Assembly: GCA_017860575.1 (NCBI GenBank)
Contig: JAGDMS010000001.1
Location: 1-62,439 of the forward strand
DNA: 62,439 nt
Origin: Deltaproteobacteria bacterium
GTDB lineage: Bacteria; Desulfobacterota; Binatia; HRBIN30
Direction of reading: 5' to 3'
The position numbers and the translations under genes were made by a program. Positions 1 to 51,411 of the stretch are shown here, piece after piece (within the stretch, counting starts at the first letter, position 1; every line of letters begins with the position of its first letter). The notes beneath the pieces are model-generated. The model saw nothing but the letters and a program-made list of their open reading frames with translations, made no database searches and was not told the DNA's origin.

Positions 1-553
1 ATAGCAACTTCAGCACCTGCACGGACTCACCGAGACGGCGGGCACGACCGCCGGGAGTGTAGAAGGGGATGCCGTAGGCAACGTGCTCCGGCTCAAACCA
101 CCCGGCACCGATGCCGACGATCAGCCGTCCGTTGCTCACCTGGTCGACGGTGGCCACCATCTTCGCCAGCACGGCGGGATACCGGTAGGTATTGCCGGTC
201 ACGAGCAGCCCCAGGTGCGCCTGCCGTGTCTGAGCGGCCAGCGCGGCCAACAAGGTCCAGCCTTCGAGGCACGGCCCCGTGATGTCGCTGAAGATCGGCA
301 TGAAATGGTCAAAGGCGAAGAGCGAATCGAAGCCGAGGTCGTCGGCCTCCTTCCAGGTGTCGACGATGTCCTGGTACGTCACCTGCTGTGGTGGCGTTTG
401 GATCCCGAACCGCACGCTCCCGCGTTTCGCGGGCGTGGTCTCCTTGGCGCGCACGGCGCTACTGCACCCTGCCAGTGTCACCGCAATTCCGGCGGCACCC
501 GCCGTCTGGATGAAGCGCCGGCGCGACAGATTCGGGTCTCGATCTTCAGCCAT
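1..553 (-). CDS. LLM-class (luciferase-like) F420/flavin-dependent oxidoreductase with Tat signal and lipobox; C-terminus lies outside the window
   Basis: Absent from the ORF track because it runs off the left edge. The reverse frame is open from ATG (553) to position 1, with AGGAGG (complement of 561-566) 7 nt upstream. My translation is MAEDRDPNLSRRRFIQTAGAAGIAVTLAGCSS...VRFGIQTPPQQVTYQDIVDTWKEADDLGFDSLFAFDHF...VSNGRLIVGIGAGWFEPEH, a typical LLM barrel N-terminal half. Confidence 0.8.
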   Translation of the reverse strand, partial: MAEDRDPNLSRRRFIQTAGAAGIAVTLAGCSSAVRAKETTPAKRGSVRFGIQTPPQQVTYQDIVDTWKEADDLGFDSLFAFDHFMPIFSDITGPCLEGWTLLAALAAQTRQAHLGLLVTGNTYRYPAVLAKMVATVDQVSNGRLIVGIGAGWFEPEHVAYGIPFYTPGGRARRLGESVQVLKLL

Positions 554-751: not shown

Positions 752-1432
752 ATGCAGGAGCGCCCAAGCGGGAGCGCGGCACTGGTGGTGGCCATCGTTG
801 TGGTTGCCGTCGTCCTGGCAGCGAGCAACATCGGTGCGCTTGCCTACGTCTGGGGGGCGAGTGGCGCCCCGCATGACACCGACCTTGCGGCGTTGGCGAG
901 GCAGCACCTCCCTGCCCTGCTCTATTTCATCGCCGCCCCGCTTGTGGCCGGCGGTGTCAGCGCATTTCTCGCCGCCCGGCGGCTCGCGGCGGCGCGCCCG
1001 GTCGGAGCCGTCACGCGCGGTGAAGCGCGGGCGGCGGTTCCAACGCCACCCTCCCCCGCGTTTGCCTTGCGCCTGCTCGGCCTGCTGCAGCAGGAGGGAC
1101 GCTTGGTCGACTTCGTCAGCGAGGACATCGACTCCTACAGCGACGAGCAGGTCGGTGCCGCTGTGCGGGCCATCCATGCTGGCTGCCGGAAGGTGCTGAA
1201 CGAGCACGTGCAACTGCAGCACATCCTCGCCGGCGAGGACGGCAGCGAGGTCGTGGTCGAGGCCGGCTTCGATCCCGCTGCGGTGCGGCTCACCGGCAAC
1301 GTCACCGGCACCCCCCCGTTCCGCGGCACGTTGCAGCACAGCGGCTGGCGCGCCACGAAGGTTACGTTGCCGGAGACATCCGCCGCAGTCGACCCGGCGA
1401 TCATCGCCCCGGCGGAGGTGGAAATCGCTTGA
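752..1432 (+). CDS. DUF2760-like small membrane protein
   Basis: ORF 737..1432; the second ATG (752) follows a GGGGGAGGAAG RBS. Two hydrophobic helices (ALVVAIVVVAVVLAA, LLYFIAAPLVAGGVSAFLAA) precede LLQQEGRLVDFVSEDIDSYSDEQVGAAVRAIH...GTPPFRGTLQHSGW. I recall this as the DUF2760 type that accompanies Hsp70 paralogues (from memory, not searched). Confidence 0.65.
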   Translation: MQERPSGSAALVVAIVVVAVVLAASNIGALAYVWGASGAPHDTDLAALARQHLPALLYFIAAPLVAGGVSAFLAARRLAAARPVGAVTRGEARAAVPTPPSPAFALRLLGLLQQEGRLVDFVSEDIDSYSDEQVGAAVRAIHAGCRKVLNEHVQLQHILAGEDGSEVVVEAGFDPAAVRLTGNVTGTPPFRGTLQHSGWRATKVTLPETSAAVDPAIIAPAEVEIA

Positions 1433-1495
1433 TCGGGGTTGGGCGTCAGGGGTTAGGGCTCAGGGTCAGACTATGAATGCGCTTGCAAGCAGCAA

Positions 1496-3364
1496 TTGGC
1501 GGCATCGCACGGAGAGAGTTTGTTGAAGCACCCGTCCCCGAACCGTGACACCCGACACCCGCAGTTTGTCGTCGGCATCGACCTGGGCACCACGAACAGC
1601 GTCGTGGCCTTCAGCGACGTCAGGCAGGAGGTCCCGGGGCCGATCGAGGTCTTCGCCATTCCGCAGTCGACGGCGGTCGGGACCGTCGAGGCGCGGCCGC
1701 AGCTTCCCTCGTTTTTGTACATTCCCGCCGCGGGAGAGTTTCCAGCCGGGGCTATGCGGTTGCCGTGGGGCGAGGCACCGCAGTACGTCGTGGGACACTT
1801 TGCCCACAGGCGTGGCGCCGAAGTGCCTGCCCGGCTGGTGGCCTCGGCGAAATCCTGGCTGTCGTATGCGGGTGTCGATCGCGCCGCCCCGATCCTGCCG
1901 TGGGGAAGTCCGGAGGACGTCGCCAAGCTCTCGCCCGTTGCCGTATCGACGGCGTATCTGTCCCATATCCGCAACGCCTGGAACGCCGCCTTTCCCGATG
2001 CGCCGCTGGAACGGCAGGAAGTGCTGCTCACCGTGCCCGCGTCGTTCGACGCGGTGGCGCGCGAGCTGACGGTACGAGCGGCGCATGAGGCCGGGCTGTC
2101 CCACCTCACGTTGCTCGAAGAGCCGCAGGCGGCCTTCTACGCCTGGATCGACGCCAACGGTGACCGCTGGCGCGAAGCCGTGCACGTCGGTGACCTGGTG
2201 CTGGTCTGCGACGTCGGCGGCGGCACCACTGACTTCACGTTGATTGCCGTGCGCCAGGAACAGGGCAGCCTGGTGCTCGACCGGGTCGCCGTCGGCGATC
2301 ACATCCTCCTGGGCGGCGACAACATGGATCTCGCCCTCGCCTACGCCGTCCGCACCCGCCTCGCCGATGCCAAGACGCAACTCGACCCCTGGCAGTTCCG
2401 TGGCCTCACCATGAGTTGCCGCGAAGCCAAGGAGCGTTTGCTCGGCGGTACCGACACGAAGCATCCGGTTTCGATTCTCGGCCGGGGCCGCAAGCTGGTT
2501 GGCGGAACCGTGCGCACCGACATCGAGCGCCAGGAGGTCGATCGGATCCTCCTCGATGGTTTCTTCCCGTACGCGGAACTGAGCGACCGTCCACAGGCGC
2601 AGCGCCGTACCGCGCTGCAGGAGATCGGCCTCCCCTACGCCACGGATCCGGCGGTTACGCGTCATCTGGCACAGTTCCTCAACCGTCATCGCGGCGCGGT
2701 TGCGGAAGCCGGAGCCGCCACTGCGGCGCATCCGACGGCGGTGCTCTTCAATGGCGGTGTCACGCGCGCCGCCGGGCTGCGCGAACGCCTGCTCCAGGTG
2801 CTGGACGGTTGGTTCGATGCCGCGCAGCCGGTTCGTTTGCTCGCTGGTGGCGATCCCGAGCACGCGGTCGCGCGCGGCGCGGCGTACTACGGATTGGCGC
2901 GGCGCGGCCGCGGTGTCCGGATCCGCGGCGGCACGGCACGCGCGTATTATGTCGGCATCGAGACGGCGATGCCCGCGGTTCCCGGCCTCCGCCCGCCCAT
3001 CAAGGCGCTGTGCGTCGTGCCGCAGGGTCTGGAGGAAGACAGCGAAGTGCTCCTGCCGGGGCAGGAGTTCGGCCTGGTGGTCGGCGAGCCCGCTGAGTTC
3101 CGCTTCCTGACGTCCGCGACACGTCGCGACGACCAGGTGGGGACGCTCGTCGAATCGTGGGATGACGACATCACCGAGTTGGCGCCGATCGAAACCACGC
3201 TGGAATGGGAAGGCCAGGAAGGCACCGCCGTCCCGGTGCGCCTGGAAGCCCGGGTCACCGAAGTGGGCGTCCTCGAGTTGTGGTGCGTCAGTCGCGATGG
3301 CACGCGCCGCTGGAAGCTGGAATTCAATCTCAGGGGTCAGGGTCCAGGTGTCGGGGGTCAGTGA
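1496..3364 (+). CDS. Hsp70-family ATPase, non-canonical (no DnaK-type substrate-binding domain recognisable)
   Basis: Motifs VVGIDLGTTNSVVAF, CDVGGGTTDFTLIAV and VLFNGG match the actin/Hsp70 nucleotide-binding domain. The start is uncertain: TTG at 1496, or TTG at 1520/1523 just after GGAGAG. Confidence 0.9.
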   Translation: MAASHGESLLKHPSPNRDTRHPQFVVGIDLGTTNSVVAFSDVRQEVPGPIEVFAIPQSTAVGTVEARPQLPSFLYIPAAGEFPAGAMRLPWGEAPQYVVGHFAHRRGAEVPARLVASAKSWLSYAGVDRAAPILPWGSPEDVAKLSPVAVSTAYLSHIRNAWNAAFPDAPLERQEVLLTVPASFDAVARELTVRAAHEAGLSHLTLLEEPQAAFYAWIDANGDRWREAVHVGDLVLVCDVGGGTTDFTLIAVRQEQGSLVLDRVAVGDHILLGGDNMDLALAYAVRTRLADAKTQLDPWQFRGLTMSCREAKERLLGGTDTKHPVSILGRGRKLVGGTVRTDIERQEVDRILLDGFFPYAELSDRPQAQRRTALQEIGLPYATDPAVTRHLAQFLNRHRGAVAEAGAATAAHPTAVLFNGGVTRAAGLRERLLQVLDGWFDAAQPVRLLAGGDPEHAVARGAAYYGLARRGRGVRIRGGTARAYYVGIETAMPAVPGLRPPIKALCVVPQGLEEDSEVLLPGQEFGLVVGEPAEFRFLTSATRRDDQVGTLVESWDDDITELAPIETTLEWEGQEGTAVPVRLEARVTEVGVLELWCVSRDGTRRWKLEFNLRGQGPGVGGQ

Positions 3365-3416
3365 AGATGCGCTCCGACCCCCAAGCGCCCAAGCCCTCAC
3401 GCCCCCACGCCCTCCA

Positions 3417-6251
3417 ATGAAACGTTACATCATCGGCATCGACCTTGGTACGACCAACTCGGCGGCGGCGTACGTGGACACGTCCGATGGGTCGCGCCAA
3501 GTGCAGCAGCTGATGATTCCCCAGCTCGTGTCCGAGGGCTCGGTCGCGGAGCGCGCGACGCTCCCATCCTTTCTCTACATTGGTGGTGAGCACGATGTGG
3601 CGCCCGGTAGTCTCGGGCTGGCCTGGGACCAGGCGCGGACGTACGCCGTTGGTGAATTTGCCCGGTTGCAGGGCGCCCGCGTTCCCGGGCGATTGGTTTC
3701 TTCGGCGAAGTCGTGGTTGTGCCACGGCGGCGTCGATCGTAAGGCCGCAATTCTCCCATGGAGCGCACCCGCAGATGTACCGAAACTCTCCCCCGTCGAA
3801 GCCTCGGCCCGGTACCTGCTGCATTTCCGCGAGGTGTGGAGGCAGGAGTTTCCGAACGCCCCGCTCGAGGCGCAAGACGTCATCCTCACCGTTCCAGCCT
3901 CGTTCGACGAAGTGGCGCGCGAACTGACCGTCGAGGCGGCGCATCGCGCTGGGCTGGCGCGGGTGGTCCTGCTGGAAGAGCCGCAAGCGGCCGTTTACGC
4001 CTGGGTCCATCACCACGAGACCGCACTCGATCAGCTCGCCGGCCTACACCGGATTCTCGTCGTCGACATCGGGGGCGGCACCACCGACTTCAGTCTGATC
4101 GCCGTCCGACATGACGACGGTCGCGTGAGCCTCGATCGCGTTGCCGTTGGCGATCACCTGTTGCTCGGCGGCGACAACATCGACGTTGCACTGGCTCGGC
4201 TGCTCGAGCCCCGGCTGGGGACGAAGCTGGACAGTCAGCGCTGGCACGCACTGACGAGCCTCTGCCGCACCGCCAAGGAGACATTGCTGGGGCCGGAGCC
4301 CCCCGCCGACGTCCCCGTTCGTCTCGTTGGTCGTGGCCGCACGGTGGTGGGCGGTGTCGTTAGCACCCAAGTGACACGCGACGAGGTCGAAGGGCTCGTC
4401 CTCGAAGGGTTCTTCCCCCTCACCCCGTCCGATGCGTTACCGCGGCGCCTGGCTCGCGCTGGCTTGCAGGAATGGGGTTTGCCGTTCGCGAGCGAGGCGG
4501 AGGTCTCACGGCATCTCGCCGCCTTTCTCCAGCAGCATCGATCGGACACTGTAGCCGGCACGGAGGAGCCGTCGGGCCACGCCGATGCATGGCCCGACGC
4601 CATTCTCTTCAACGGCGGAGCGCTCAAACCAGCGATCATCCGTGATCGGCTGCGTGCCTTAATCCGGCATTGGAGCGGCCGCGAGCCGGCGGTCCTCGAA
4701 AGCGTCGATCTGGATCTCGCCGTCGCCCGGGGCGCCGCATACTACGGCCTGGTGCGCCGCGGCCTTGGTGTGCGCATCGGCGGCGGCAGCGCCCGCTCGT
4801 ACTATCTCGGCATCGGCGCCGCAGAGGGCCTCGAGGGTGCGACCGAGCCCGACTCCCGCATTACCGTCTTGTGCCTGGCACCGCGGGGCATGCACGAGGG
4901 CGACGAGGTCGAGATCACCGAGCCGGCACTCGATGTCCTGGCGAATCGCGCCGTCAGTTTCCCACTGTTCGCCTCGAGCACGCGGACCGGGGAGCGTGCC
5001 GGGCAACTGGTGCTGGCCGAGCCCGATTCCGTCACCGAACTGCCGCCCATCCGTACCGTGCTGCGCTTCGGCAAAAAGCTTGCGGCCCGCAAGATCCCGG
5101 TGCATGTCGTCGCGCGCCTGACCGAGGTGGGCACGCTGGAAGTCTGGTGTCGCTCGCTGACCACGGAGCATCGTTGGAGACTGCAGTTCCAGCTCCGCGA
5201 ACACGCTGCGCCGGTTGCCGAGGAAGAGGGCGAGCCGGAAGCACGATCGGAAGCGGAGTCGGTAATCGGCGAAACGCAACTCGAGGCGGCTGTGCAGATC
5301 GTGCGTGCCGTCTTTCCGGGTGGCGACGTGCACAGCCACGGCGACCCCGTCGGCATCGTGCGGGCGGTGGAGGACGCGCTGGGGACCGGCAAGGACGCCT
5401 GGCCGTTGCTCGCCATTCGCAAGCTCTGGGATGCCTTGTGGGACGGGCAGCAGCGGCGCGACGTGAGCCAGGCGCACGAGGCCCGGTGGCTCAACCTCAG
5501 CGGTTTTCTGCTGCGGCCGGGGTTCGGCGCGGAGCTCGACGATTGGCGTATCCAGCAACTGTGGAAGTTGAAGTCGAGTGGGCTCCGGTTCCCGAAAGCC
5601 GCACAGGGTCGCACGGAGTGGTGGAACATGTGGAAACGGGTCGCGGCGGGGCTCACCCGCCCGCAGCAGATGCAACTCTACAACGAGGTTGCGCCGTACT
5701 TGCTGCCGCGGCTGAAGGGCAAAGCGAAAAGTGGTCCCAAGCCGGGACCGCAGGAGTTGCGCGAGTTCTGGCAACTGATGGCAAGCTGCGAGCAGCTCTC
5801 CGCGGAGATCAAGGCGGAGCTGGGCAATGCTCTGCTGCCGCTGGTCGTGAAGGGCAAAGCCACGACGCTTGAGCTGTGGGCCCTGGGCCGGCTCGGTGCG
5901 CGGGCCCCGTTCTCCGGGCCGCTCAACTGTGTGGTGGCCCGGGCGACCGTCGAGCAATGGGTGGAGACCGTCCTGCGCGCCGGGTGGCCGAAGGCGGAGT
6001 CGATGGTCTTCACGTTGGCGCAATTGGCACGCTGCGTCGGCGACCGCGAGCGCGACTTGGACGAGTCGCTGCGCCGGCGAATTGCTCAGCGTATCGAATC
6101 ACTTCCCACAGGCCGCCGCGCCGCCCGGCTGATCACGGAATTCGTCCCCCTCGAAGCCCAGGAGCGGGCACGCATCCTTGACGAGTCACTGCCAGTGGGC
6201 CTGCAGATCCGAACCGAGAGCGCTTCGGCCGCCGCACCGCCCCAGCCCTAA
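3417..6251 (+). CDS. Long Hsp70-family ATPase (DnaK-related) with ~350-aa helical C-terminal extension
   Basis: In-frame ATG at 3417 gives MKRYIIGIDLGTTNSAAAYV, followed by VDIGGGTTDFSLIAV and ILFNGG. The track ORF begins at 3162, but those 85 codons overlap the end of the previous gene and look non-coding. The C-terminal third is W/R/L-rich and helical, with no motif I can name. Confidence 0.9.
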   Translation: MKRYIIGIDLGTTNSAAAYVDTSDGSRQVQQLMIPQLVSEGSVAERATLPSFLYIGGEHDVAPGSLGLAWDQARTYAVGEFARLQGARVPGRLVSSAKSWLCHGGVDRKAAILPWSAPADVPKLSPVEASARYLLHFREVWRQEFPNAPLEAQDVILTVPASFDEVARELTVEAAHRAGLARVVLLEEPQAAVYAWVHHHETALDQLAGLHRILVVDIGGGTTDFSLIAVRHDDGRVSLDRVAVGDHLLLGGDNIDVALARLLEPRLGTKLDSQRWHALTSLCRTAKETLLGPEPPADVPVRLVGRGRTVVGGVVSTQVTRDEVEGLVLEGFFPLTPSDALPRRLARAGLQEWGLPFASEAEVSRHLAAFLQQHRSDTVAGTEEPSGHADAWPDAILFNGGALKPAIIRDRLRALIRHWSGREPAVLESVDLDLAVARGAAYYGLVRRGLGVRIGGGSARSYYLGIGAAEGLEGATEPDSRITVLCLAPRGMHEGDEVEITEPALDVLANRAVSFPLFASSTRTGERAGQLVLAEPDSVTELPPIRTVLRFGKKLAARKIPVHVVARLTEVGTLEVWCRSLTTEHRWRLQFQLREHAAPVAEEEGEPEARSEAESVIGETQLEAAVQIVRAVFPGGDVHSHGDPVGIVRAVEDALGTGKDAWPLLAIRKLWDALWDGQQRRDVSQAHEARWLNLSGFLLRPGFGAELDDWRIQQLWKLKSSGLRFPKAAQGRTEWWNMWKRVAAGLTRPQQMQLYNEVAPYLLPRLKGKAKSGPKPGPQELREFWQLMASCEQLSAEIKAELGNALLPLVVKGKATTLELWALGRLGARAPFSGPLNCVVARATVEQWVETVLRAGWPKAESMVFTLAQLARCVGDRERDLDESLRRRIAQRIESLPTGRRAARLITEFVPLEAQERARILDESLPVGLQIRTESASAAAPPQP

Positions 6252-9537: not shown

Positions 9538-9987
9538 ATGTCCGACGAGATTCTGAGCGCCGAGTTCGAGCTGGGCTTCACATACACCCGCTCGCCCGGT
9601 CCCGTCATCGGCAAGTTCCTCGCCGCCCTGCAGCAACGGCGCTTGTATGGCATCCGGGGCAGCGACGGGCGCGTGCTTTTCCCGCCAACCGAGTATGACC
9701 CGCTGACGGGCGCTGACTTGCGCGACTACGCACCCGTCGCCGAGGAGGGAGCGGTGGTGGCCTGGACCTGGGTGCGTACCCCGCGCCGCCATCATCTCCT
9801 GCGCCAACCCTTCGCCTGGGCCCTGGTCAAACTCGACGGCGCCGATACGCCGTTTCTGCATATGGTGGTCTCTGACTCCGAAGCCGACATCCACGCGGGC
9901 CTGCGCGTGAGCGTGCGCTGGGCGGACGAGCGCCGCGGTGCGATCACGGACATCGCCTGGTTCGAACCCGTCAGGAAGGAGGCGTAG
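9538..9987 (+). CDS. DUF35 OB-fold protein (thiolase-associated), zinc-ribbon cysteines absent
   Basis: The layout is typical DUF35: FLAALQQRRLYGIRGSDGRVLFPP followed by an OB-fold (ALVKLDGADTPFLHMVV...GLRVSVRW). AAGGAG RBS. Confidence 0.8.
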   Translation: MSDEILSAEFELGFTYTRSPGPVIGKFLAALQQRRLYGIRGSDGRVLFPPTEYDPLTGADLRDYAPVAEEGAVVAWTWVRTPRRHHLLRQPFAWALVKLDGADTPFLHMVVSDSEADIHAGLRVSVRWADERRGAITDIAWFEPVRKEA

Positions 9988-9990
9988 CCG

Positions 9991-10518
9991 ATGGATATCG
10001 ATCTTGAACCGGTTGCGGTGTTCGAGGCACCGATTTACCTCCGCTACCACGCCACCTCGGCGCGCGCGATTACGCCCTTCCTGCACGCGCTCAGGCGGGG
10101 CATCCTGCTCGGACACCGGTCTCCCGCCACCGGCAAGGTCTTGTTCCCGCCGTTGGGCTCCTGCCCGGAGAGCGGACAACCGACGAGCGAAGAGGTCGTC
10201 CTGGCGGACACGGGAACGATCATCAGCTTTACCACCGTGCACCTGGCAATTCCCGGTAGCAAATTGAAACCGCCGTTTACCGTCGCCAACATCATGCTCG
10301 ACGGCGCGGACCAATTCTTCAGCCACCTCGTGAGCGGTTGCGCGCTCGAGGATGTCGCCATCGGCATGCGCGTCCGTGCCAAGTGGCGACCGGCGTCCGA
10401 GTGGGGCTACAGTCTCGAGAACATCGAGTATTTTGTGCCGACCGGCGAACCGACGGTGGATATCCCCACACTCAAGGCGGAGCGCCTCAGATTGGCGCAG
10501 GAGCGCCGCCATGCGTGA
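9991..10518 (+). CDS. DUF35 OB-fold protein, second copy
   Basis: FLHALRRGILLGHRSPATGKVLFPP...FTVANIMLDGADQFFSHLV...GMRVRAKW. GGAGG RBS; the stop overlaps the next start (ATGCGTGA). Confidence 0.8.
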   Translation: MDIDLEPVAVFEAPIYLRYHATSARAITPFLHALRRGILLGHRSPATGKVLFPPLGSCPESGQPTSEEVVLADTGTIISFTTVHLAIPGSKLKPPFTVANIMLDGADQFFSHLVSGCALEDVAIGMRVRAKWRPASEWGYSLENIEYFVPTGEPTVDIPTLKAERLRLAQERRHA

Positions 10519-11566
10519 CGTCGCCATCATGGGGTACGCCCAGTCGCCGCAGGTCCGCGAGGCCCGCGGGCTCAACGAAGTCGAGATGCTCATGCCGGTG
10601 CTGCAGGCAGCCCTGGCAGACGCGCACATGACTCTGGCCGACATCGATTTCGTGTGCTCCGGCTCCTGCGACTACATCGCTGGGGGGGCGTTCTCGTTTG
10701 TCGGCGCACTAGATGCGGTCGGCGCCACGCCGTGCATGCAGGAGTCGCACGTCGAGATGGATGCCGCCTGGGCACTTTACGAGTCGTGGTTGAAGATCCA
10801 GAGCGGCCACATCAGGACGGCGCTGATTTACGGCTTTGCCAAGGCCTCCAACGGCTCGCTGCCCGACATCCTGTCGCAGCAACTCGACCCGTACTACCTG
10901 GCGCCGCTGTGGCCCGACAGCATCAGCCTGGCAGCGCTGCAGGCCAATCTTCTGCTGCAGACCGGCCGGTATGCGCAGCGCGACTTTGCCGAGGTCGTGG
11001 TCGACAGCCGCCGGCACGCACTGGCGAACCCAAACGCACAATTGAAGGGTGAGGTGACTGTCGAGGCCCTGTTGGCGGAACCGATGCTGGCGCCTCCGCT
11101 ACGCAAGCACGACTGCTGCCCCATCAGCGACGGCGCCTCGGCGATGGTGATCGCTGCAGGCGAGGTGGCGCAATCGCTCGCCGACCGGCCGGTGTACATC
11201 CGCGGCATCGATCACCGCATGGAGGTGCACCAACTCGGCCAGCGTGACCTGACCACGTCCGTCTCGACGCGGCAGGCGGCCGACCGCGCCGGCGTGGGTG
11301 AGGACAAGATCGAACTGGCGGAATTGTACGCCCCGTTCAGCCCGCAGACCCTCATCCTCCAAGAATCTTTGGGGCTCCGCCCTGACGTGGTGGTCAATCC
11401 TTCCGGCGGCCCGCTGGCAGGCCACATTTTCATGTGCGCCGGGCTGGATCGGTTTGGTGAGGCAGCACGACGGATTCGCGCGGGCACCGCCGACCGGGCG
11501 GTTGCGCATGCGACCTCCGGACCGTGCCTGCAGCACAACATGGTCGCCGTGCTGGAGGGGAAGTAA
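10511..11566 (+). CDS. Thiolase-fold protein (SCP-x/Ltp-like), canonical nucleophile Cys not evident
   Basis: In-frame ATG at 10511 gives MRDVAIMGYAQSP.... NPSGGPLAGH lies in the C-terminal half. The position where thiolases carry CxS reads HVEMDAAWAL. Confidence 0.85.
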   Translation: MRDVAIMGYAQSPQVREARGLNEVEMLMPVLQAALADAHMTLADIDFVCSGSCDYIAGGAFSFVGALDAVGATPCMQESHVEMDAAWALYESWLKIQSGHIRTALIYGFAKASNGSLPDILSQQLDPYYLAPLWPDSISLAALQANLLLQTGRYAQRDFAEVVVDSRRHALANPNAQLKGEVTVEALLAEPMLAPPLRKHDCCPISDGASAMVIAAGEVAQSLADRPVYIRGIDHRMEVHQLGQRDLTTSVSTRQAADRAGVGEDKIELAELYAPFSPQTLILQESLGLRPDVVVNPSGGPLAGHIFMCAGLDRFGEAARRIRAGTADRAVAHATSGPCLQHNMVAVLEGK

Positions 11567-11567
11567 C

Positions 11568-12731
11568 ATGGCGCATCGTGTTGCCGTCGTGGGCGTCGGA
11601 CAGACAGTTCGCTATCGGACGAAGATCAATGCCTCGCTCGCGGGCCTGGTGCGTGAGGCGGCCCTCGAGGCACTGGCCGACGCGGAGTGCACGTGGAGTG
11701 ACATCGACGCCCTGATCCTGGGTAAGGCGCCCGACATGTTCGAAGGCGTCGTCATGCCGGAGATCTACCTGGCGGAGGCGCTAGGCGGCGTGGGTAAGCC
11801 GGTCTTGCGCGTGCACACCGCTGGCAGCGTGGGGGGCTCCACCGCGATCGTGGCGGCCACACATGTGGCCAGCGGCCTGTTCAAGCGTGTGCTCACGGTC
11901 ACCTTCGAAAAGCAATCCGAATCCAACGCGCACTGGGCGCTGTCTCCGTCCCTACCTTTTCGCGCACACTTCAACTCCGGTGCGGGGGGCATGTTCGCCC
12001 CCATCCTGCGCGAGTACATCCATCGCAATCGCTGCCCGGCGGACGTTGGCTGCATGGTGGCGCTGAAAGATCGCAAGCACGCTTTGCGCAATCCGCGGGC
12101 GCATCTACAAATCAAAGATATCAGTTTGCAAATGGTGAAAGACTCGCCAATGCTGTGGGAGCCCATCCGCTTTTTGGAAACCTGTCCCTCATCGGACGGT
12201 GCTTGCGCACTCGTGCTGTGCAGCGAGGATTTGGCGGAGCGCTCGGTGCGGCCGCCCGCTTGGGTGCACGGCATGGCGATGCGCTCCGAGCCGGGATTCT
12301 ACCCCTGGCGCGAGGAAGTGTATCCCCACGCCACGCGGGAGTGCGCCAAGGATCTGTACCAGCAGGCCGGGATCCAGAACCCGCGCAAGGATTTCGACGT
12401 GGCGGAGGTCTACGTGCCGTTCTCCTGGTTCGAGCCCCTGTGGCTGGAGAACCTGGGTTTCGCCGATCGTGGCCAGGGCTGGAAGCTCACCGAGACCGGC
12501 GCCACGTCCCTGGACCAGGGCGGCGACATCCCTTGGAACTGTTCCGGCGGGGTATTGTCGTCGAACCCAATCGGCGCGTCCGGGATGATCCGCTTCGCCG
12601 AGGCGGCATTGCAGGTGCGCGGCATGGCCGGCGCCCACCAGGTGGACGGCGCGCGCAAGGCCCTGGGCCACGCTTACGGTGCCCACAATCAATTCTTCGC
12701 CATGTGGGTCGTCGCGGCCGACAAGCCGTGA
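11568..12731 (+). CDS. Thiolase-fold protein (lipid-transfer/SCP2-thiolase type), second subunit
   Basis: ATG at 11568 lies 1 nt after the previous TAA: MAHRVAVVGVGQT.... CSGGVLSSNPIGASGMIRFAEAALQVRG matches the Ltp-type C-terminal motif. The nucleophile region reads VHTAGSVGGSTAI and has no Cys. Confidence 0.85.
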   Translation: MAHRVAVVGVGQTVRYRTKINASLAGLVREAALEALADAECTWSDIDALILGKAPDMFEGVVMPEIYLAEALGGVGKPVLRVHTAGSVGGSTAIVAATHVASGLFKRVLTVTFEKQSESNAHWALSPSLPFRAHFNSGAGGMFAPILREYIHRNRCPADVGCMVALKDRKHALRNPRAHLQIKDISLQMVKDSPMLWEPIRFLETCPSSDGACALVLCSEDLAERSVRPPAWVHGMAMRSEPGFYPWREEVYPHATRECAKDLYQQAGIQNPRKDFDVAEVYVPFSWFEPLWLENLGFADRGQGWKLTETGATSLDQGGDIPWNCSGGVLSSNPIGASGMIRFAEAALQVRGMAGAHQVDGARKALGHAYGAHNQFFAMWVVAADKP

Positions 12732-28581: not shown

Positions 28582-30117
28582 TCAGCCCACCCGTGCGGCC
28601 CTTGTCGAAGTACCGCGTTCCGGCGTCTGCGCACGCAAAGCGCTCGCCTCCCTCGAATGCCGTAGCACATATTCGACCGCGGGCGTGCTCTCCGCTTCGA
28701 CATAGATCTGGTAGGAGAACAACGTCTTGCTCAGATGGATCAGTGCCAGATTCAGCATCACCGCCGCCTGCCCCAATCGTCCGTTGCCGAGCACCTTGGG
28801 AAAGGGGGCCGGAATCCCCTTGATCTTGGTGACGCGAAACCCCTCGTCGCGTAGCAGGTGCTTGATGGCGCGAAAGGTGAACAGTCGGGTGTGGGTGCGA
28901 TCGAGGATGCCCGCCTTCCCGTAGTTGAACTGCCCAAGCAGCAACATCAACCGCTGCACCACAAACGCCACGTTGGGCGTGGTAAGGATCAACCGCTTGG
29001 TGTCGTAGTCGAATTGGCTTCGCAGGTGCGCCATGAATCGCTCGGGATCGCGCAGGTGTTCGATGATGTCGAGCAGCAGGAGGTAGTCGAACGGCCGCAC
29101 ATCGAACAGCAACGGCGCATCGAGGTCCTGCTGGATGGACTGCACGCGCAGGTGCTCGACCCGTGGCGGGTGTTGATCCACAACGGTGACATCACATCCC
29201 TTCTGCACCAGTTCATCTGCGAGACCGCCCGGACCCGAGCCGATGTCGAGGACGCGGGCGCCCGCAGGAACGGCCGCTAGCGCGTAGGTGTGGCTGCTCG
29301 CGTAGCCCAGTTTCAGGTCGTAGTGGGTGTTGTCGTCAAGCTCGGGGTCGAACCGTCGTTGGTACAACAGTCCCGCGCGATGGGCGACGCTGCGCAGCGT
29401 CGCCAGTAACACGTCCTTGGCGTACCGCAGTCCATTTACGCGACAGATCTCGCCGCCGTAATAGGTCGGGATCGGCAACTCAACGAGGCGGGCCCCGGCG
29501 TTCAGCAACTGGATGATGATCTCGGTGTCGAAGTGGAAATCGTTCGAGTTGAGGCGGAAGGGTATCTTTTTGAGTGCGGCGACGGCATAGATGCGATAGC
29601 CGCTGTGAAATTCCGAGAGGCGCGTGCCGAGCAGGCGGTTTTGAATCCAAGTCAGAATGCGGTTGCCGACGAACTTGTACATCGGCATGCCACCCCGCAG
29701 CGCGCCGAAGCGCTCCGTCATCCGACTACCGAAGACCGCGTCCGCCTCGCCATTGCGGAGCGGGGCCAGGAGTTTGGCCAGTTCCTCAGGTGCATATTGA
29801 CCGTCGCCGTGCAACATGGCGACAAAATCGAATCCCTCGGCGATCGCATAGGCGTAGCCGACCTTCTGATTGCCGCCGTAACCCTGGTTGAACTCGTTAC
29901 GCAGCACCGTCATCGGGATCTCCGGCCGGACCGACTGGTATTCGCGACCGATGGCGAACGTCCGGTCCTCCGACGCGTCGTCGACGACCAGAATCTCGCA
30001 GGCGAACTGGTCAAACACCCCACGCGGAATGCGGTCGAGCACCTGTTGCAGCGTCGACTCGGCATAGTAGGCGATGACGAAGATCAGCAGCCGTTGCTTA
30101 CCGTCTTGCTGAGACAT
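28582..30117 (-). CDS. Bifunctional family-2 glycosyltransferase (polyprenyl-phosphate sugar synthase-like) / class I SAM methyltransferase
   Basis: The N-terminal half has VVDDASEDRT and HGDGQY (GT2 DxD-type). The C-terminal half has VLDIGSGPGGLA (SAM motif I) and LLLLDIIEHL. Confidence 0.85.
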   Translation of the reverse strand: MSQQDGKQRLLIFVIAYYAESTLQQVLDRIPRGVFDQFACEILVVDDASEDRTFAIGREYQSVRPEIPMTVLRNEFNQGYGGNQKVGYAYAIAEGFDFVAMLHGDGQYAPEELAKLLAPLRNGEADAVFGSRMTERFGALRGGMPMYKFVGNRILTWIQNRLLGTRLSEFHSGYRIYAVAALKKIPFRLNSNDFHFDTEIIIQLLNAGARLVELPIPTYYGGEICRVNGLRYAKDVLLATLRSVAHRAGLLYQRRFDPELDDNTHYDLKLGYASSHTYALAAVPAGARVLDIGSGPGGLADELVQKGCDVTVVDQHPPRVEHLRVQSIQQDLDAPLLFDVRPFDYLLLLDIIEHLRDPERFMAHLRSQFDYDTKRLILTTPNVAFVVQRLMLLLGQFNYGKAGILDRTHTRLFTFRAIKHLLRDEGFRVTKIKGIPAPFPKVLGNGRLGQAAVMLNLALIHLSKTLFSYQIYVEAESTPAVEYVLRHSREASALRAQTPERGTSTRAARVG

Positions 30118-30263
30118 GGAGTCTGCACTCTCCGCGCGCCATCGCCGAACTGGTCCCTAACCTGCGAGAACGCAAATCATACGCGCTTTGTTCTGGCGAG
30201 GCTAGCGTGACCGCGTCTCGACTTGGGGTGCCGCAGGATGAATGCTAGACGTGCGCCGATGCG

Positions 30264-33200
30264 GTGCCGTCTCAAACGGTTCCAACGACGACCATGCGCG
30301 AAGACGCCACCGTGCCGGTCCCGGCCCAGCACCGCGAGCGGGAAACAGCCGTGATCGAGGCGACTGCTCAAGCGGGAGTGCGCCACCGAAGGGTCCGGGG
30401 AGGTGCCTGGCTCACCCCCAATAGGGCCGTGCTGATCGTGGTGATGGTAGCGGCGTGCGTACGCTTTCTCATGATGGGCTCGTTGCCTCTCATCGTGACG
30501 CCAGACAGCATGGAATACATCGGTAGTGCCATCGGCCTGCTGCGCCACGGCACCGTCAACCTGAACGAATACCGGACGCCGGGGTATCCGATCGTGCTTG
30601 CCGCGGTCTTTTTGCTTTTCGGGGTGGGGCCCTTCGGGATTTTACTCACGCAGCATGCCGTCGGCATCCTGATATCGGCGCTGGTCACGGCCATGGCAAT
30701 CCGCCTGGCGACGCCGTCCATTGGACTGGCCGTTGGGCTACTCACCTGCGTCGACCCCTGGTTCCTCTTGTTGAGCAACTACGCCCTCACGGAGACCGCT
30801 TTCACGCTGAGCGTCATCGGAGCGGCCGCTTGGATCGTTCTGCGGCGCCAGCCCCGTCCGCGTATGGGGCTCGTGCTGGGAGCTGCTCTCGGGGCGGCCT
30901 GTCTGATCCGGCCGACCGCCCAGGTGCTCGTGCCGTTCTACGCTGCGGCGTGGGTTGTGCGGATGCGACGCGGTTGGCGGGGGGTCGTCGCTGGCCTGTG
31001 TGCCGTCGCTGTGGGCGGCGCCCTCGTCGTGAGCCCCTGGGTCCACTATGAATGGAAACGGGGCGTGCACGGCCTGGCGCGCGGCTCGTTCGCCTTCTTC
31101 TGGGGGACGGCGATGTTCGGGATGCTCGATCCCGATTACATTCAAGACGCCGCAACCCGGCACGCGTACCAGCACACTATCGCGCGTGAGATCAGCGATC
31201 ACTCTGTCGTCACCTTTTGCTGGGAGACGGACTGCATCCGCTCCGTCCCGCAGTCCCGATTGCTGCAGGACTGGGTCGCGCACAGCATTGCCCGCCAACC
31301 GGTGGTCTATCTGCGCAACATCTGGTACGCGTTGCTCTGGCTGCTGAACTGCGGGTTCGAGGGCCGACCACCGATCTATGACGAACTCCCGTGGTTTGCG
31401 GAGCGCCTCCTCATCGATGGGACCACCATGGGGCAGGATGCACCCAATTTCCAAGGCGCTCGCCTTGGATTCCCCAAGTCGGAGACCTTTGTCATGGCCG
31501 TGAATCCACGCGGCCCGCTGCCATCGTACTTTCGCTGGTGGGCCGCGGGTTACGTGCGTGGATGGCCGCACATCCCCCTGTTTCTCGCCACCGCTATCGC
31601 AACAGCCCTTGCCTTCAGGACACGGCGCTGGCACCTGGCCCTCCTCTTCTTATCGGTGCTGGCGTTCGTCGCGGCCCATGCGGTGATGTTGCTGGTAACC
31701 GCGCGCTACACGGTGCCGCTCTTAGCGCTCTCGTACGTTGCCTTTGCATTCGCGGTGGGCGCCTGGGTGCCGCACCGTGCGCGTGCGTTGCACCGCCTCG
31801 GAATCGATGACACAAGATCTCCCGATGTCACCCCTACCAACGAGGCGGGGCCTCACGGTATTGCATCCCGCATGAGTCGGATCAGCGGCCGGCGCTTCAC
31901 CGTTGGATTGTTGCTCGCGCTCACCGTTGGACTCTGCGCCGCATACTCGAACAGCTTCACCATCGGTTTCCAATTCGACGATGCGTATTTGATTCCGGCA
32001 AACTCGGCCATTCGTAGTCTGCGCAACATTCCCAGTTTCTTTTACGATCCGTTCACCTTCACGGCAGTGCGAGAGAACGCCGACCTGCGGCCCATCCTGC
32101 AAATCACATACGCGCTCAATTACGCCATCTCGGGGCGCCACCCATGGAGCTACCACCTACTCAGCTTGCTACTGCACTTTCTGACCAGTGCTCTGGTGTT
32201 CGTCATCGTCCGTGATCACGTGTGGTGGCCCCCCGGACAGCGCGGCGCCTGCGGGGAGGCGCGGCTCCCGGCCGCCGGAGCGGCCTTATTGTTTGCCCTG
32301 GCCCCGCTCAACAGTTCGATGATCGACTACATGTCGGCACGCTCGGCCCTGCTGTGCACGGCACTGTATCTTACCGCTTTCCTCTGTTTTCTCCGCCGGC
32401 GACCGGTGCTCACCGGACTGTTCCACGCCCTGGCACTGCTCACCAAAGCCATTGCCGTCACCCTGCCTGTCACCATCCTCGCCTACGACTTCATCTACAG
32501 GGATCGTGAGCGTTATCCGAGGGTGATCGACTATCTCCGGGATTGGAAGCGGCTCGCCCCGTGGATTATCCTCCCGGTCGTCCTCGACATTGCCTATCTG
32601 CTGTATCGGTATCTGTTGCTTCCGCCGTGGCTCGTGGAGGTGCGCAAACAGCCGTTCACCACGCCGCTACTCTGGTTCATGAGCCAATGGTCGGCCTATC
32701 TGTATTACGTCCGCCTGTTTCTCTGGCCCGACGCACTGTCGATCGATCACGACTTCCCCTACGCCTTCAGCTTTCTGCAGACGCGCGCATGGTTGCCGCT
32801 GGGCATCATACTGCTGTGGATCGGCGCGGCTCTGCGATGGTCGAGGCAGGTTCCTGCGGTGGCGTTTGCGACCCTCTGGTTCTTTCTGACGCTGGCGCCG
32901 GAATCGACTTTCGCACCGCTCGCGGAAGTGGTCAACGAGCACCGCCCGTACATTGCGTCGGCGCTCGGCCTTTCGGTTTTAGTGATGTGGCTGCTCGATC
33001 GAGCCTGCCGCTGCTTCGGTCCGTACCAGCGGACCGGCTTTGCCGCCATCTGCATCGGTCTGTGCGTCGCGGCCATACCCGTTACTCGTCATCGCAACTG
33101 GCAATGGCAGGATCCGCTCCGGCTGTGGGTCGACGCCACGCAGAAGGGGCCCGGCAACGGCCGGGCGTGGATGAACGCGGGCCTGGAGTTCATGCACCGC

Positions 33201-49121: not shown

Positions 49122-50309
49122 TCACGTGCGCTCCGCCGGGTCGAACAGCTTGCGGTGTTCGTCGAGCGCGAACCGGTCGGTCATGCCGGCGATATAGTCG
49201 GCCACGACCCGTGCAAGCGCTTCGCCCTTCTGCCAGCGCGCCGCGATGTGTGGTGGTAGCTGCGCCGGTTCGTCTATGTAGGCATGGAACAGATCGGCCA
49301 TGACCTTCTGCGCCTTCACCCCCATGCGCATGACGCGATAATGGCGGTAGAGGTTGTGCATCAAAAACGCTTTCAGTTCGAGCCGCATCTCCTCGGTCCG
49401 CGGACTGAACCCGACAATCGGCCGGCCGCTGTCGCGCAGGTCATCAACATTCTCGATTTCCCACTCGCGCAAGCGGGTGGAGACCGTCTGGATCAGGTCG
49501 GTAACCAGGGTATCGATCAGTGTCCGCTGCACCTGGTAGCGCCAGATCCGAAAGCCGGCGGTCGGGTACTGCGCCGACACCGCACCAAAGATCGCGCGCC
49601 ACAGGCTCACCCCGTGGAGTTGTTCCGACGTCAGGAGGCCCGATTTCAGCCCATCATCGATATCGTGGGTGTTGTACGCGATCTCATCCGCAAGGTCGAC
49701 GATCTGCGCTTCAAGGCACGGCGCTCGGCCGGGCTCGAAGGCCTGTGCCAGTGGGCGGTCGTACGGCGGGGAGTGCTTGGCGATGCCCTCGCGGACTTCC
49801 CACGACAGATTGAGTCCGGCGAATGCTGGGTAGCGCTCCTCCAGGAGATCTACGATCCGCAGACTCTGCTGGTTGTGTTCGAAGCCGCCGTGGTCCGCCA
49901 TCAACTGGTGCAAGATTCGCTCCCCGGCATGGCCGAACGGCGTATGTCCCAGGTCGTGCGACAACGCCACCGCCTCGGCGAGGTCCTCGTTGAGCCGCAA
50001 CGCGCGCGCGATGGTCCGCGTGATCTGCGCCGTTTCCATGGTGTGCGTCAGACGGGTGCGGTAGTAGTCCCCTTCGTGGTTCACGAACACCTGGGTCTTG
50101 TACTCTAGTCGCCGAAATGCGGTCGAGTGAATGATGCGGTCGCGATCGCGCTGGAACGCCATCCGGAAGCCATGTTCCGTTTCCGCGTGCGCGCGGCCCC
50201 GGCTATCCCGGCTCTGCATCGCATACGGTGCCAGCGTCGCCTCTTCCAGCATCTCGAACGCTTTTCGGTCCATGGGACGACTATATTCGGCGCCGGCGGA
50301 GCGGTGCAA
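49122..50309 (-). CDS. dgt: dGTP triphosphohydrolase-like HD-domain protein
   Basis: FQRDRDRIIHSTAFRRLEYKTQVF, RLTHTMETAQI and HDLGHTPFGH are present. The start is TTG 50309 or ATG 50273. Confidence 0.85.
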   Translation of the reverse strand: MHRSAGAEYSRPMDRKAFEMLEEATLAPYAMQSRDSRGRAHAETEHGFRMAFQRDRDRIIHSTAFRRLEYKTQVFVNHEGDYYRTRLTHTMETAQITRTIARALRLNEDLAEAVALSHDLGHTPFGHAGERILHQLMADHGGFEHNQQSLRIVDLLEERYPAFAGLNLSWEVREGIAKHSPPYDRPLAQAFEPGRAPCLEAQIVDLADEIAYNTHDIDDGLKSGLLTSEQLHGVSLWRAIFGAVSAQYPTAGFRIWRYQVQRTLIDTLVTDLIQTVSTRLREWEIENVDDLRDSGRPIVGFSPRTEEMRLELKAFLMHNLYRHYRVMRMGVKAQKVMADLFHAYIDEPAQLPPHIAARWQKGEALARVVADYIAGMTDRFALDEHRKLFDPAERT

Positions 50310-51390: not shown

Positions 51391-51411
51391 CCACCGCTGT
51401 GGAGGAAACCC

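What the first reader, a model, noticed from the sequence alone, without database searches (positions are those of the whole stretch)
752..6251. DUF2760-like membrane protein plus two paralogous non-canonical Hsp70 ATPases, with no co-chaperones: a three-gene module of unknown function
Seen: three same-strand genes with 63-nt and 52-nt spacers. Gene 1 (226 aa) has two TM helices and a conserved soluble domain. Genes 2 (622 aa) and 3 (944 aa) keep intact Hsp70/actin ATPase motifs (IDLGTTNS; D[VI]GGGTTDF[TS]LIAV; LFNGG). What follows is not a DnaK-type substrate-binding domain or lid. Both genes share a beta-rich region ending in the same signature (ARVTEVGVLELWCVSRDGTRRWKLEFNLR vs ARLTEVGTLEVWCRSLTTEHRWRLQFQLR), so they are paralogues of each other. 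Gene 3 adds a ~350-aa W/R/L-rich helical tail with no motif I can name. No J-domain or GrpE gene occurs anywhere in the window, and the flanking genes are unrelated. Established (from memory): DUF2760 and long DnaK-related proteins are catalogued families without an assigned function. Inference: this is a self-contained, membrane-associated ATPase machine (a dedicated chaperone, a sensor/effector or a conflict system). It is my best candidate for an undescribed system here.
Basis: partly seen in the sequence, partly recalled or inferred. Interest (0 to 1): 0.7.

Follow-up and report, generated by a model that had tools for sequence, protein, structure and literature searches.

The report
Membrane-anchored two-Hsp70 module, function unknown
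Three adjacent genes (a small membrane protein of family DUF2760 and two divergent Hsp70-type ATPases, one with an armadillo-like tail) form a module found in many bacterial phyla with no J-protein or GrpE gene beside it; I found no published function, and it is most likely a dedicated chaperone-type machine at the inner membrane rather than a defence system.

Summary
Gene 1 (752-1432) is a DUF2760 protein with two hydrophobic helices. Genes 2 (1496-3364) and 3 (3417-6251) are 47% identical Hsp70-type paralogues with every catalytic residue intact. Gene 3 ends in Pfam DUF3731.

One claim is wrong. The region after the ATPase is an Hsp70 substrate-binding beta-domain by fold. What is missing is the helical lid: gene 2 stops after the beta-domain, and gene 3 carries an armadillo-like solenoid instead.

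The three genes are colinear in 52 of 60 assessable genome loci anchored on DUF2760, from Binatia, Myxococcota, Desulfobacterota, Planctomycetota and Vibrio, and the same order occurs on a Bradyrhizobium plasmid. The short Hsp70 nearly always follows DUF2760. The long gene is unlinked in about 40% of tail-anchored metagenome loci.

No fourth gene, J-domain or GrpE gene is conserved nearby. The module is absent from phage collections, rare on plasmids, and has no defence-family match beyond a weak one to the shared ATPase core.

No paper in the library names either DUF. A 2026 review lists such "DnaK derivates" as uncharacterised.

Best reading: a dedicated Hsp70 pair tethered to the membrane by DUF2760. 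The mechanism is inferred, not shown.

The parts
1..553 (-). Context only: 5' part of a divergent, unrelated gene (TAT-signal luciferase-like monooxygenase) cut by the contig end. The 198-nt intergenic region 554-751 should hold the module's promoter.
   Evidence: Six-frame translation. Pfam Bac_luciferase E 2.1e-28 and TAT_signal. No convincing sigma-70 promoter on the + strand.
752..1432 (+). Gene 1, 226 aa, DUF2760 membrane protein. GGAGG lies a few bases upstream of the ATG at 752.
   Evidence: PF10816 E 1.7e-51. Sequence read. 839 homologues at E<=1e-3 among the candidates scored.
758..976 (+). Two hydrophobic helices of gene 1 (aa 3-36 and 53-75), the predicted membrane anchor. The short loop is outside and the K/R-rich segment after the second helix is inside.
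   Evidence: Kyte-Doolittle scan and charge count. AlphaFold2 helices 7-36 and 45-80. Orthologues have 2, 1 or 0 such segments.
1061..1429 (+). Conserved cytoplasmic DUF2760 domain, ending in the near-invariant C-terminal motif ..APAEVE(I/L).
   Evidence: Pfam envelope. Invariant columns in alignments A1 and A3. The motif is kept in Vibrio, Myxococcales, Desulfobacterales and Caldilineales. The AlphaFold2 model of this part is only pLDDT 55-75.
1496..3364 (+). Gene 2, 622 aa, the 'short' lidless Hsp70. ATPase domain about aa 23-471 (nt 1562-2908), beta-domain about aa 480-613 (nt 2933-3334), then the protein ends.
   Evidence: Pfam HSP70 E 3e-15 over the ATPase domain only. 47% identity to gene 3 through the beta-domain. 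Catalytic residues invariant in 75 short-form sequences.
3417..6251 (+). Gene 3, 944 aa, the 'long' Hsp70 with the DUF3731 tail.
   Evidence: Pfam HSP70 plus DUF3731. 100% match to an NCBI MAG protein, locus tag H6Q33_4.
3423..4760 (+). ATPase domain of gene 3 (aa 3-448), with intact catalytic residues.
   Evidence: PDB sequence matches cover the DnaK ATPase domain only. DnaK D8, T11, T12, K70, E171, D194, G196-198, T199 and D201 are invariant in 61 long-form sequences.
4797..5192 (+). Hsp70-type substrate-binding beta-sandwich of gene 3 (aa 461-592).
   Evidence: AlphaFold2 strands at model residues 22-153, pLDDT mostly above 85. Foldseek hits to Hsp70 peptide-binding domains, target-normalised TM-score about 0.5, probability 1.0.
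5271..6182 (+). Armadillo-like alpha-solenoid of gene 3 (aa 619-922; Pfam DUF3731 covers aa 684-931). It follows an acidic disordered linker (aa 596-613) and sits where a canonical lid would be.
   Evidence: AlphaFold2 helices at model residues 180-483, pLDDT about 90. Foldseek hits Armc8 (8a1i, E 8.8e-4) and designed armadillo repeat proteins, target-normalised TM-score 0.42-0.49. 1,531 representative clusters, and in the full-length proteins (about 890-1,130 aa) the tail is always C-terminal.

Best explanation
The locus encodes a dedicated Hsp70-type machine that works at the cytoplasmic face of the inner membrane.

Shown:
- Two anciently duplicated, catalytically intact Hsp70 paralogues each keep an ATPase domain and a substrate-binding beta-domain but have no canonical lid.
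- The short one ends after the beta-domain. The long one carries an armadillo-like solenoid (DUF3731) in the lid position.
- A small DUF2760 protein, usually with one or two hydrophobic helices, is encoded immediately upstream of the short Hsp70 in almost every locus.
- No J-protein or GrpE gene is linked.

Inferred:
- DUF2760 tethers the ATPases to the membrane. It also acts as their obligate partner, as co-factor or as dedicated client, through its near-invariant cytoplasmic domain and C-terminal ..APAEVE(I/L) end.
- The two ATPases work as a pair, one possibly regulating nucleotide exchange of the other as Hsp110 does for Hsp70.
- The arginine- and tryptophan-rich armadillo surface of the long paralogue recognises an extended peptide. 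This could be the acidic C-terminus of DUF2760 or a specific client.
- The output would be ATP-driven remodelling or holding of a limited set of membrane-proximal proteins, not general folding.
For: - Domain assignments.
- Catalytic residues are invariant in 75 short and 61 long sequences.
- DnaK residues that contact the J-domain (R167, N170, T173; roles from my own knowledge of the DnaK-DnaJ structure 5NRO) are replaced, and the VLLLD linker has no alignable counterpart.
- No J-domain or GrpE gene is found in the window or in 81 loci. None is among the recurrent neighbour families.
- Synteny: 52 of 60 assessable DUF2760-anchored genome loci are colinear. Spacing between the conserved segments is tight, median 50 and 73 nt.
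- All 10 plasmid or chromid records that have the tail also have DUF2760 about 4-5 kb upstream on the same strand.
- Short forms from all phyla form one clade, 73 of 75, so the pair predates the spread.
- Hydrophobic anchor and positive-inside charge.
- The DUF2760 soluble domain models poorly on its own (pLDDT 55-75). That is compatible with folding on a partner but proves nothing.
Against: - No interaction among the three proteins was tested; both structure-prediction jobs went to single chains.
- The long gene is unlinked in 12 of 28 assessable tail-anchored metagenome loci. It is inverted or distant in a few genome loci. So an obligatory three-part complex is not proven.
- A Haliangium DUF2760 has no hydrophobic segment.
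- No DUF2760-Hsp70 fusion was found in the five over-length tail-bearing proteins checked.
- DnaJ and GrpE encoded elsewhere could still serve these proteins.
- The Foldseek E-values for the beta-domain are modest (about 1e-2), although the hits are consistent.
Confidence: 0.45

Rival explanations
1. The two proteins are not autonomous chaperones. They are Hsp110-like co-chaperones, acting as nucleotide exchange factors or disaggregation boosters that pair through their ATPase domains with the canonical DnaK encoded elsewhere. DUF2760 only localises them.
For: - A 2026 review proposes exactly this role for bacterial 'DnaK derivates' with shortened or missing lids and extra terminal domains, and says such genes occur only in genomes that also have a true DnaK (PMC13580251).
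- The J-contact residues and the canonical linker are lost, as in Hsp110.
- The long form is larger than the short one, as Hsp110 is larger than Hsp70.
Against: - Two paralogues kept together across phyla suggest they partner each other.
- Both keep all catalytic residues and a beta-domain.
- No dnaK gene is linked.
- Nothing here tests binding to DnaK.
Confidence: 0.2
2. It is a regulatory Hsp70 switch rather than a chaperone. ATP-dependent binding and release of one signalling client at the membrane controls a pathway such as exopolysaccharide, c-di-GMP or development, as proposed for StkA in Myxococcus or Ssz1 in yeast.
For: - StkA is an Hsp70-like negative regulator of exopolysaccharide (PMC4319316).
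- In Vibrio a CHASE-GGDEF gene lies divergently upstream in the conserved context.
- A MarR regulator precedes the copy on a Bradyrhizobium plasmid.
- The M. xanthus 925-aa cd10170 Hsp70 MXAN_5323, possibly a member (not verified), is developmentally up-regulated. Its deletion lowers sporulation and peroxide resistance (PMC8265645).
Against: - The stk locus is a different system: StkB is SCP2-like and there is no DUF2760.
- Signalling neighbours are lineage-specific. No such family recurs in more than 2-4 of about 70 neighbours.
Confidence: 0.15
3. It is an anti-phage or other conflict system in which the ATPases sense infection and a membrane effector (DUF2760) kills or arrests the cell.
For: - It is a compact three-gene module with a small membrane protein, patchy across phyla.
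- One copy sits on a conjugative plasmid next to a VapC toxin gene.
- There is a weak PADLOC hit to PDC-M61B (E 1.6e-5, ATPase-core region only).
Against: - No PADLOC family match for any of the three proteins beyond that core hit.
- Absent from 50,697 phage records and 2.9 million viral contigs.
- Present in only 10-11 of 72,556 plasmids, mostly chromids.
- Neighbours are housekeeping or metabolic, without recurrent defence families.
- The genomic context is stable across Vibrio species, and near-identical copies occur throughout the Harveyi clade.
- All three proteins are strongly conserved rather than diversifying.
Confidence: 0.06
4. The ATPases are actin- or MreB-like polymerising proteins that build a membrane-attached filament through DUF2760.
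For: Weak Pfam and NCBIfam hits to MreB, BeeR and EutJ in the shared actin-fold core.
Against: - Hsp70 scores are higher than MreB scores.
- The Hsp70-specific catalytic lysine (K70 equivalent) is invariant.
- A true Hsp70 beta-domain follows the ATPase.
Confidence: 0.03

Closest known systems
Canonical DnaK-DnaJ-GrpE system
   Same: Actin-fold ATPase with all catalytic residues, followed by a peptide-binding beta-sandwich.
   Different: - About 24% identity to DnaK.
- No helical lid, and no alignable VLLLD linker.
- J-contact residues are replaced.
- No linked J-protein or GrpE gene.
- NCBIfam DnaK scores of 53-61 bits against cut-offs of 648-822.
Specialised bacterial Hsp70s with dedicated partners (HscA-HscB; HscC with the membrane-anchored J-protein DjlC)
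   Same: A diverged Hsp70 encoded beside a dedicated partner. For HscC the partner is membrane-anchored (my own knowledge). The best NCBIfam hits are HscA models.
   Different: - HscA scores of 82-87 bits against a cut-off of 620.
- The partner here has no J-domain (hhalign probability 0.1%).
- Two paralogous Hsp70s instead of one.
Hsp70-Hsp110 pair of eukaryotes
   Same: Two paralogous Hsp70-fold ATPases of unequal length that could pair through their ATPase domains. The linker and J-contacts are lost (PMC13580251).
   Different: - The extra length here is a C-terminal armadillo-like solenoid, not an extended beta-domain and lid.
- The origin is bacterial and independent.
- Pairing was not tested.
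Armadillo-repeat nucleotide exchange factors HspBP1, Fes1 and Sil1
   Same: An armadillo-type solenoid associated with an Hsp70 (fold class only; the role of these factors from PMC13580251).
   Different: - Here the solenoid is fused to an Hsp70.
- No sequence similarity to any solved structure (best E 0.039, to FliG).
- These proteins are not among the listed Foldseek hits.
'DnaK derivates' of Myxococcota (FEBS J 2026 review; mSphere 2021 study of M. xanthus Hsp70s)
   Same: The same general class: a DnaK-like ATPase domain, a shortened or missing lid, and added C-terminal domains of unknown function. MXAN_5323 (925 aa, cd10170) has the size of the long form.
   Different: Those papers, as far as I read them, do not describe the DUF2760 partner, the paired arrangement or the fold of the tail. 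Membership of MXAN_5323 could not be checked here.

Membership tests
Pfam PF10816 (DUF2760) | Match to the family profile above the gathering score (25 bits) | tested here: met
   173.7 bits, E 1.7e-51, profile positions 4-124 of 124.
Pfam PF12531 (DUF3731, 'DNA-K related protein') | Match above the gathering score (25 bits), C-terminal to an Hsp70 ATPase domain | tested here: met
   265.9 bits, E 5.9e-79, profile positions 1-248 of 248, aa 684-931 of gene 3. The tail is C-terminal in the full-length proteins among 1,531 representative clusters.
Hsp70 superfamily | Actin-fold ATPase domain with phosphate-binding motifs and catalytic residues (DnaK D8, K70, E171, D194, T199, D201) | tested here: met
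   Pfam HSP70 at 55.9 and 64.2 bits against a cut-off of 20.6. All listed residues are invariant in 75 short and 61 long sequences. The DnaK reference sequence was recalled from memory; positions 4-240 agree with PDB 1dkg_D apart from one substitution (A17/I17).
Hsp70 superfamily | Peptide-binding beta-sandwich after the ATPase domain | tested here: met
   AlphaFold2 model pLDDT 84. Foldseek hits to Hsp70 peptide-binding domains, about 140 columns, target-normalised TM-score 0.47-0.51, probability 1.0, E about 7e-3 to 1e-2. Not detectable by sequence profile.
Canonical DnaK-type Hsp70 | Alpha-helical lid over the beta-domain | tested here: not met
   Gene 2 ends about 9 residues after the beta-domain. 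In gene 3 a disordered linker and an armadillo-like solenoid follow.
Canonical DnaK-type Hsp70 | Conserved hydrophobic interdomain linker (DVLLLD) and J-domain contact residues (R167, N170, T173) | tested here: not met
   The linker columns are gaps in all 136 sequences. R167 becomes T/V/I, N170 becomes E, T173 becomes Q/L. The MAFFT alignment in this region is uncertain; a G-V-R-I segment may be the functional counterpart.
Canonical DnaK-type Hsp70 | Cognate J-protein and GrpE | tested here: not met
   None in the window or in 81 loci by tblastn, and none among recurrent neighbour families. Partners encoded elsewhere in the genome cannot be excluded.
HscA / HscC / YegD (NCBIfam models) | Score above the curated cut-off | tested here: not met
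   HscA 82-87 bits against 620-708. YegD-type PRK11678 22-35 bits against 331.
GrpE (as an identity for DUF2760) | Profile similarity to the GrpE family | tested here: not met
   hhalign probability 0.1-0.3%. No GrpE among PDB profile hits at E<=10 or Pfam hits at E<=10. Foldseek lists GrpE 3a6m at E 3.2, probability 0.03.
J-domain (as an identity for DUF2760) | Similarity to the J-domain; HPD motif | tested here: not met
   hhalign probability 0.08%. No HPD in the conserved domain.
Known or candidate anti-phage defence systems (PADLOC-DB 2.0) | Match of the component proteins to a defence-system model | tested here: not met
   Gene 1 has no hit. Genes 2 and 3 hit only PDC-M61B at E 2.5e-4 and 1.6e-5, over about 80-90 residues of the ATPase core.
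Hsp110 / Grp170 | Nucleotide-exchange activity on a partner Hsp70 through an ATPase-to-ATPase heterodimer | not testable with these tools
   Needs complex modelling or biochemistry.

The most novel reading that the evidence does not exclude
This is a previously undescribed class of bacterial Hsp70 machine that needs neither a J-protein nor GrpE. A hetero-pair of lidless Hsp70 paralogues is anchored to the inner membrane by DUF2760, and DUF2760 is a new kind of Hsp70 co-factor (tether plus ATPase or nucleotide-exchange regulator, or a lid supplied in trans). The fused armadillo solenoid acts as a built-in adaptor or exchange factor.
Probability: 0.3. Interest if true: 0.75.

Novelty: new variant of a known kind. 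Interest (0 to 1): 0.55.

Why it matters
Hsp70s are usually described as working only with J-proteins and exchange factors. Bacteria with large genomes carry many divergent "DnaK derivates" whose roles are an acknowledged open question (PMC13580251).

This module gives that question a concrete handle:
- a fixed three-gene unit with a membrane partner;
- fold assignments for every soluble part except DUF2760;
- presence in cultivable, genetically tractable bacteria (Vibrio harveyi, V. alginolyticus, V. anguillarum, Burkholderia cenocepacia).

If the pair proves independent of J-proteins and GrpE, it would widen the known ways of running the Hsp70 cycle. It would also give functions to two Pfam families of unknown function.

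Tried and rejected
1. My recollection that this was the Myxococcus stk locus was wrong. StkB is SCP2-like, StkC is a small PhaE-like protein, and there is no DUF2760.
2. DUF2760 as a GrpE-like exchange factor. Two short colinear matches (FDP.. and GNVxG..) caught my eye, but hhalign gives 0.1-0.3% probability. PDB, Pfam and Foldseek give nothing.
3. DUF2760 as a J-domain: no similarity.
4. Fold of DUF2760: the model is too weak (pLDDT 68) and Foldseek returns noise.
5. Sequence relatives of the tail among solved structures: none. The best is FliG at E 0.039.
6. A conserved fourth gene: none, by clustering 1,088 ORFs and by Pfam on 143 flanking ORFs.
7. A DUF2760-Hsp70 fusion as evidence of interaction: none in the five over-length tail-bearing proteins checked.
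8. An alternative partner for solitary long genes: none.
9. Promoter and terminator scans: uninformative.
10. Rfam and tRNA scans of the window: nothing.
11. Verifying that M. xanthus MXAN_5323 is a member: the sequence is not obtainable here and the supplements do not help.
12. A third homologue search seeded with the Vibrio protein returned only 99-100%-identical Vibrio sequences. It added little alignment diversity.

Full report
**What is in the sequence.** The window comes from a metagenome-assembled genome labelled Deltaproteobacteria. Its closest relatives are labelled Candidatus Binatia.

Three + strand ORFs lie at 752-1432 (226 aa), 1496-3364 (622 aa) and 3417-6251 (944 aa), separated by 63 and 52 nt. 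Upstream, on the other strand, is the cut 5' part of a TAT-signal luciferase-like monooxygenase (1-553). Downstream are RibD_C, SnoaL, nitronate monooxygenase and ChsH2/thiolase-like genes. tblastn finds no third Hsp70, no J-domain and no GrpE in the 62 kb. Rfam and tRNA scans are empty.

**Gene 1.** It matches Pfam DUF2760 (E 1.7e-51).
- It has two hydrophobic stretches, aa 3-36 and 53-75. Four K/R follow the second, which places the conserved C-terminal 120 residues in the cytoplasm.
- Across phyla the N-terminal part varies. There are two hydrophobic segments in Binatia, Myxococcales, Syntrophobacteraceae, Desulfobacterales and Caldilineales. Vibrio has one, followed by a VEKxVE repeat spacer. 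A Haliangium copy has none.
- The cytoplasmic domain is highly conserved. It ends everywhere in ..APAEVE(I/L), at or within two residues of the C-terminus.
- AlphaFold2 models the soluble domain poorly (pLDDT 55-75). Foldseek, a PDB profile search and Pfam at E<=10 give nothing.
- I tested whether it could be a hidden GrpE or J-domain. hhalign probabilities are 0.1-0.3% and 0.08%, so neither is supported.

**Genes 2 and 3.** They are 47% identical over 601 residues. By sequence they match Hsp70s only across the ATPase domain. Scores are far below the curated cut-offs for DnaK, HscA or YegD.

I aligned 75 short and 61 long orthologues with E. coli DnaK. The DnaK sequence was recalled from memory; its first 240 residues agree with PDB 1dkg_D apart from one substitution.
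- D8, T11, T12, K70, E171, D194, G196-198, T199 and D201 are invariant in both families. Both should therefore hydrolyse ATP.
- The residues that contact the J-domain in DnaK (R167, N170, T173; roles from my own knowledge of PDB 5NRO) are replaced.
- The DVLLLD linker has no alignable counterpart.

**The C-terminal regions.** I modelled gene 3 residues 440-944 with an alignment of 62 homologues (mean pLDDT 84). The model has three parts:
- a beta-sandwich, gene 3 aa 461-592;
- an acidic disordered linker, aa 596-613;
- a helical solenoid, aa 619-922.

Foldseek against the PDB returns two classes of hit. One class is Hsp70 peptide-binding domains (3dqg, 3dob, 3h0x, 4wv7, and DnaK, BiP and HscA substrate-binding domains): about 140 columns, target-normalised TM-score 0.47-0.51, probability 1.0. 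The other is armadillo repeat proteins: Armc8 at E 8.8e-4, and designed armadillo repeat proteins at target-normalised TM-score 0.42-0.49.

These are Hsp70s without a lid. Gene 2 stops right after the beta-domain. Gene 3 carries Pfam DUF3731, which by fold is an armadillo-like solenoid.

The tail has no sequence relative among solved structures. It occurs in 1,531 representative clusters, and in the full-length proteins (about 890-1,130 aa) it is always at the C-terminus. Its invariant residues are rich in W and R.

**Conservation of the arrangement.** A scan of one genome per species with the DUF2760 alignment found at least 576 relatives; 80 loci were kept. They include Binatia, Myxococcota, Syntrophobacteraceae, Desulfobacterales, Planctomycetota, Gemmatimonadota, Caldilineales and thirteen Vibrio genomes.
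- Of 60 loci with enough downstream DNA, 52 show DUF2760, short Hsp70 and long Hsp70 with tail in that order on one strand.
- Three were scored as DUF2760 plus the long form only. One of these, L022, also has a short Hsp70.
- Three have the long gene nearby but inverted. Two lack it within the locus.
- Gaps between conserved segments are short, with medians of 50 and 73 nt.
- All ten plasmid or chromid records with the tail also have DUF2760 upstream on the same strand. One is a conjugative Bradyrhizobium plasmid where the record itself annotates the three genes.

Anchoring on the tail gives a less tidy picture. Of 28 assessable metagenome loci, 13 are colinear trios, 3 are variants and 12 have the long gene alone, with no alternative conserved partner. 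The tight pair is therefore DUF2760 plus the short Hsp70. The long paralogue is usually, but not always, adjacent.

In a neighbour-joining tree the short forms from all phyla fall in one clade (73 of 75). The duplication is therefore old.

**What surrounds it.** Clustering all ORFs of the 80 loci shows no conserved fourth gene. Pfam scans of 143 flanking ORFs give no family in more than four loci. The mix is housekeeping or metabolic: Sua5, RtcA, arginine decarboxylase, lipid A acyltransferase and others. Within Vibrio the context is conserved (RNase T-like, TerB, CHASE-GGDEF). That argues for vertical inheritance there, and near-identical copies occur throughout the Harveyi clade.

There is no copy in 50,697 phage records or 2.9 million viral contigs. 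PADLOC gives no family match beyond a weak hit to the ATPase core. A defence role is therefore unlikely.

**What is known.** No paper in the searchable library mentions DUF2760, DUF3731 or their accessions.
- A 2021 review of bacterial Hsp70 machines returned no match for my search terms (YegD, atypical, DUF, unknown function).
- A 2026 review describes bacterial "DnaK derivates" with missing lids and extra domains as functionally unknown. It proposes an Hsp110-like co-chaperone role.
- A 2021 study of M. xanthus Hsp70s deleted MXAN_5323, a 925-aa cd10170 protein of the right size. It found lower sporulation and peroxide resistance, and heat induction. I could not verify that this protein carries DUF3731 or sits beside a DUF2760 gene.
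- My initial idea that the locus equals the stk locus was wrong.

**Interpretation.**

Shown:
- a widely conserved module made of a DUF2760 protein that usually has a hydrophobic N-terminal anchor and two catalytically intact, lidless Hsp70 paralogues;
- one paralogue carries an armadillo-like tail;
- no linked J-protein or GrpE gene;
- the context is not that of a defence island.

Inferred:
- DUF2760 tethers the ATPases to the membrane and regulates or feeds them.
- The paralogues act as a pair.
- The armadillo surface binds an extended peptide, possibly the acidic C-terminus of DUF2760.
- The system remodels a narrow set of membrane-proximal clients.

The main rival is that both proteins serve the canonical DnaK as Hsp110-like factors. 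A regulatory-switch role is also open. None of these can be separated without complex modelling or experiments.

**Verdict.** Three corrections apply:
- the beta-domain is an Hsp70 substrate-binding domain;
- the tail is DUF3731, an armadillo-like solenoid;
- the trio is the commonest arrangement, not a universal one.

This is a new variant of a known kind of system, catalogued in domain databases but with no functional description in the literature I could search. Interest is moderate to high for chaperone biology, because the module is present in tractable organisms.

Noticed in passing
L066:9734-10366 and L047:9770-10405 (Vibrio harveyi, V. ordalii): Vibrio DUF2760 proteins have a single hydrophobic helix. 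A tandem VEKPVEKIVEVEK-type repeat spacer follows it before the conserved domain, in place of the second helix seen in Binatia.
   Followed up: partly
L081:3991-9840 (Bradyrhizobium barranii plasmid pCC829_3, NZ_CP088103.1): A complete trio sits on a 110-kb conjugative plasmid. It lies between Trb transfer genes and a topoisomerase/VapC region, and a MarR-family regulator gene lies directly upstream.
   Followed up: partly
L086, L091, L099, L122, L128, L134, L140, L142, L148, L155, L158, L159: In these metagenome contigs the long Hsp70-DUF3731 gene stands alone. There is no DUF2760, no short Hsp70 and no other conserved neighbour within about 5-7 kb. Whether the pair is encoded elsewhere in those genomes is unknown.
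   Followed up: partly
L022:12221-13988 and L035:12204-14025: The long Hsp70 gene matches in two adjacent pieces, which suggests a frameshift: either a pseudogene or an assembly error.
   Followed up: no
window 1496-1525: The start of gene 2 is ambiguous. The longest ORF starts at TTG 1496, but GGAGAG at about 1511-1516 precedes TTG codons at 1520 and 1523. Most distant orthologues align only from residue 22 or so onwards.
   Followed up: partly
window 1268-1373 (gene 1 aa 173-207): Two short colinear resemblances to the C-terminal beta-domain of GrpE (G-F-D-P.. and G-N-V-x-G ... R-A-x-x-V-T). They are statistically unsupported (hhalign probability below 1%), but they recurred in three separate comparisons.
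   Followed up: yes
window 9538-12731: Two tandem ChsH2-type OB-fold proteins are followed by two thiolase-like proteins. This arrangement is reminiscent of side-chain cleavage clusters for steroids or branched lipids.
   Followed up: no
window 30001-34000 and 50001-54000: AT skew is markedly negative (about -0.13 to -0.16) compared with the rest of the window.
   Followed up: no
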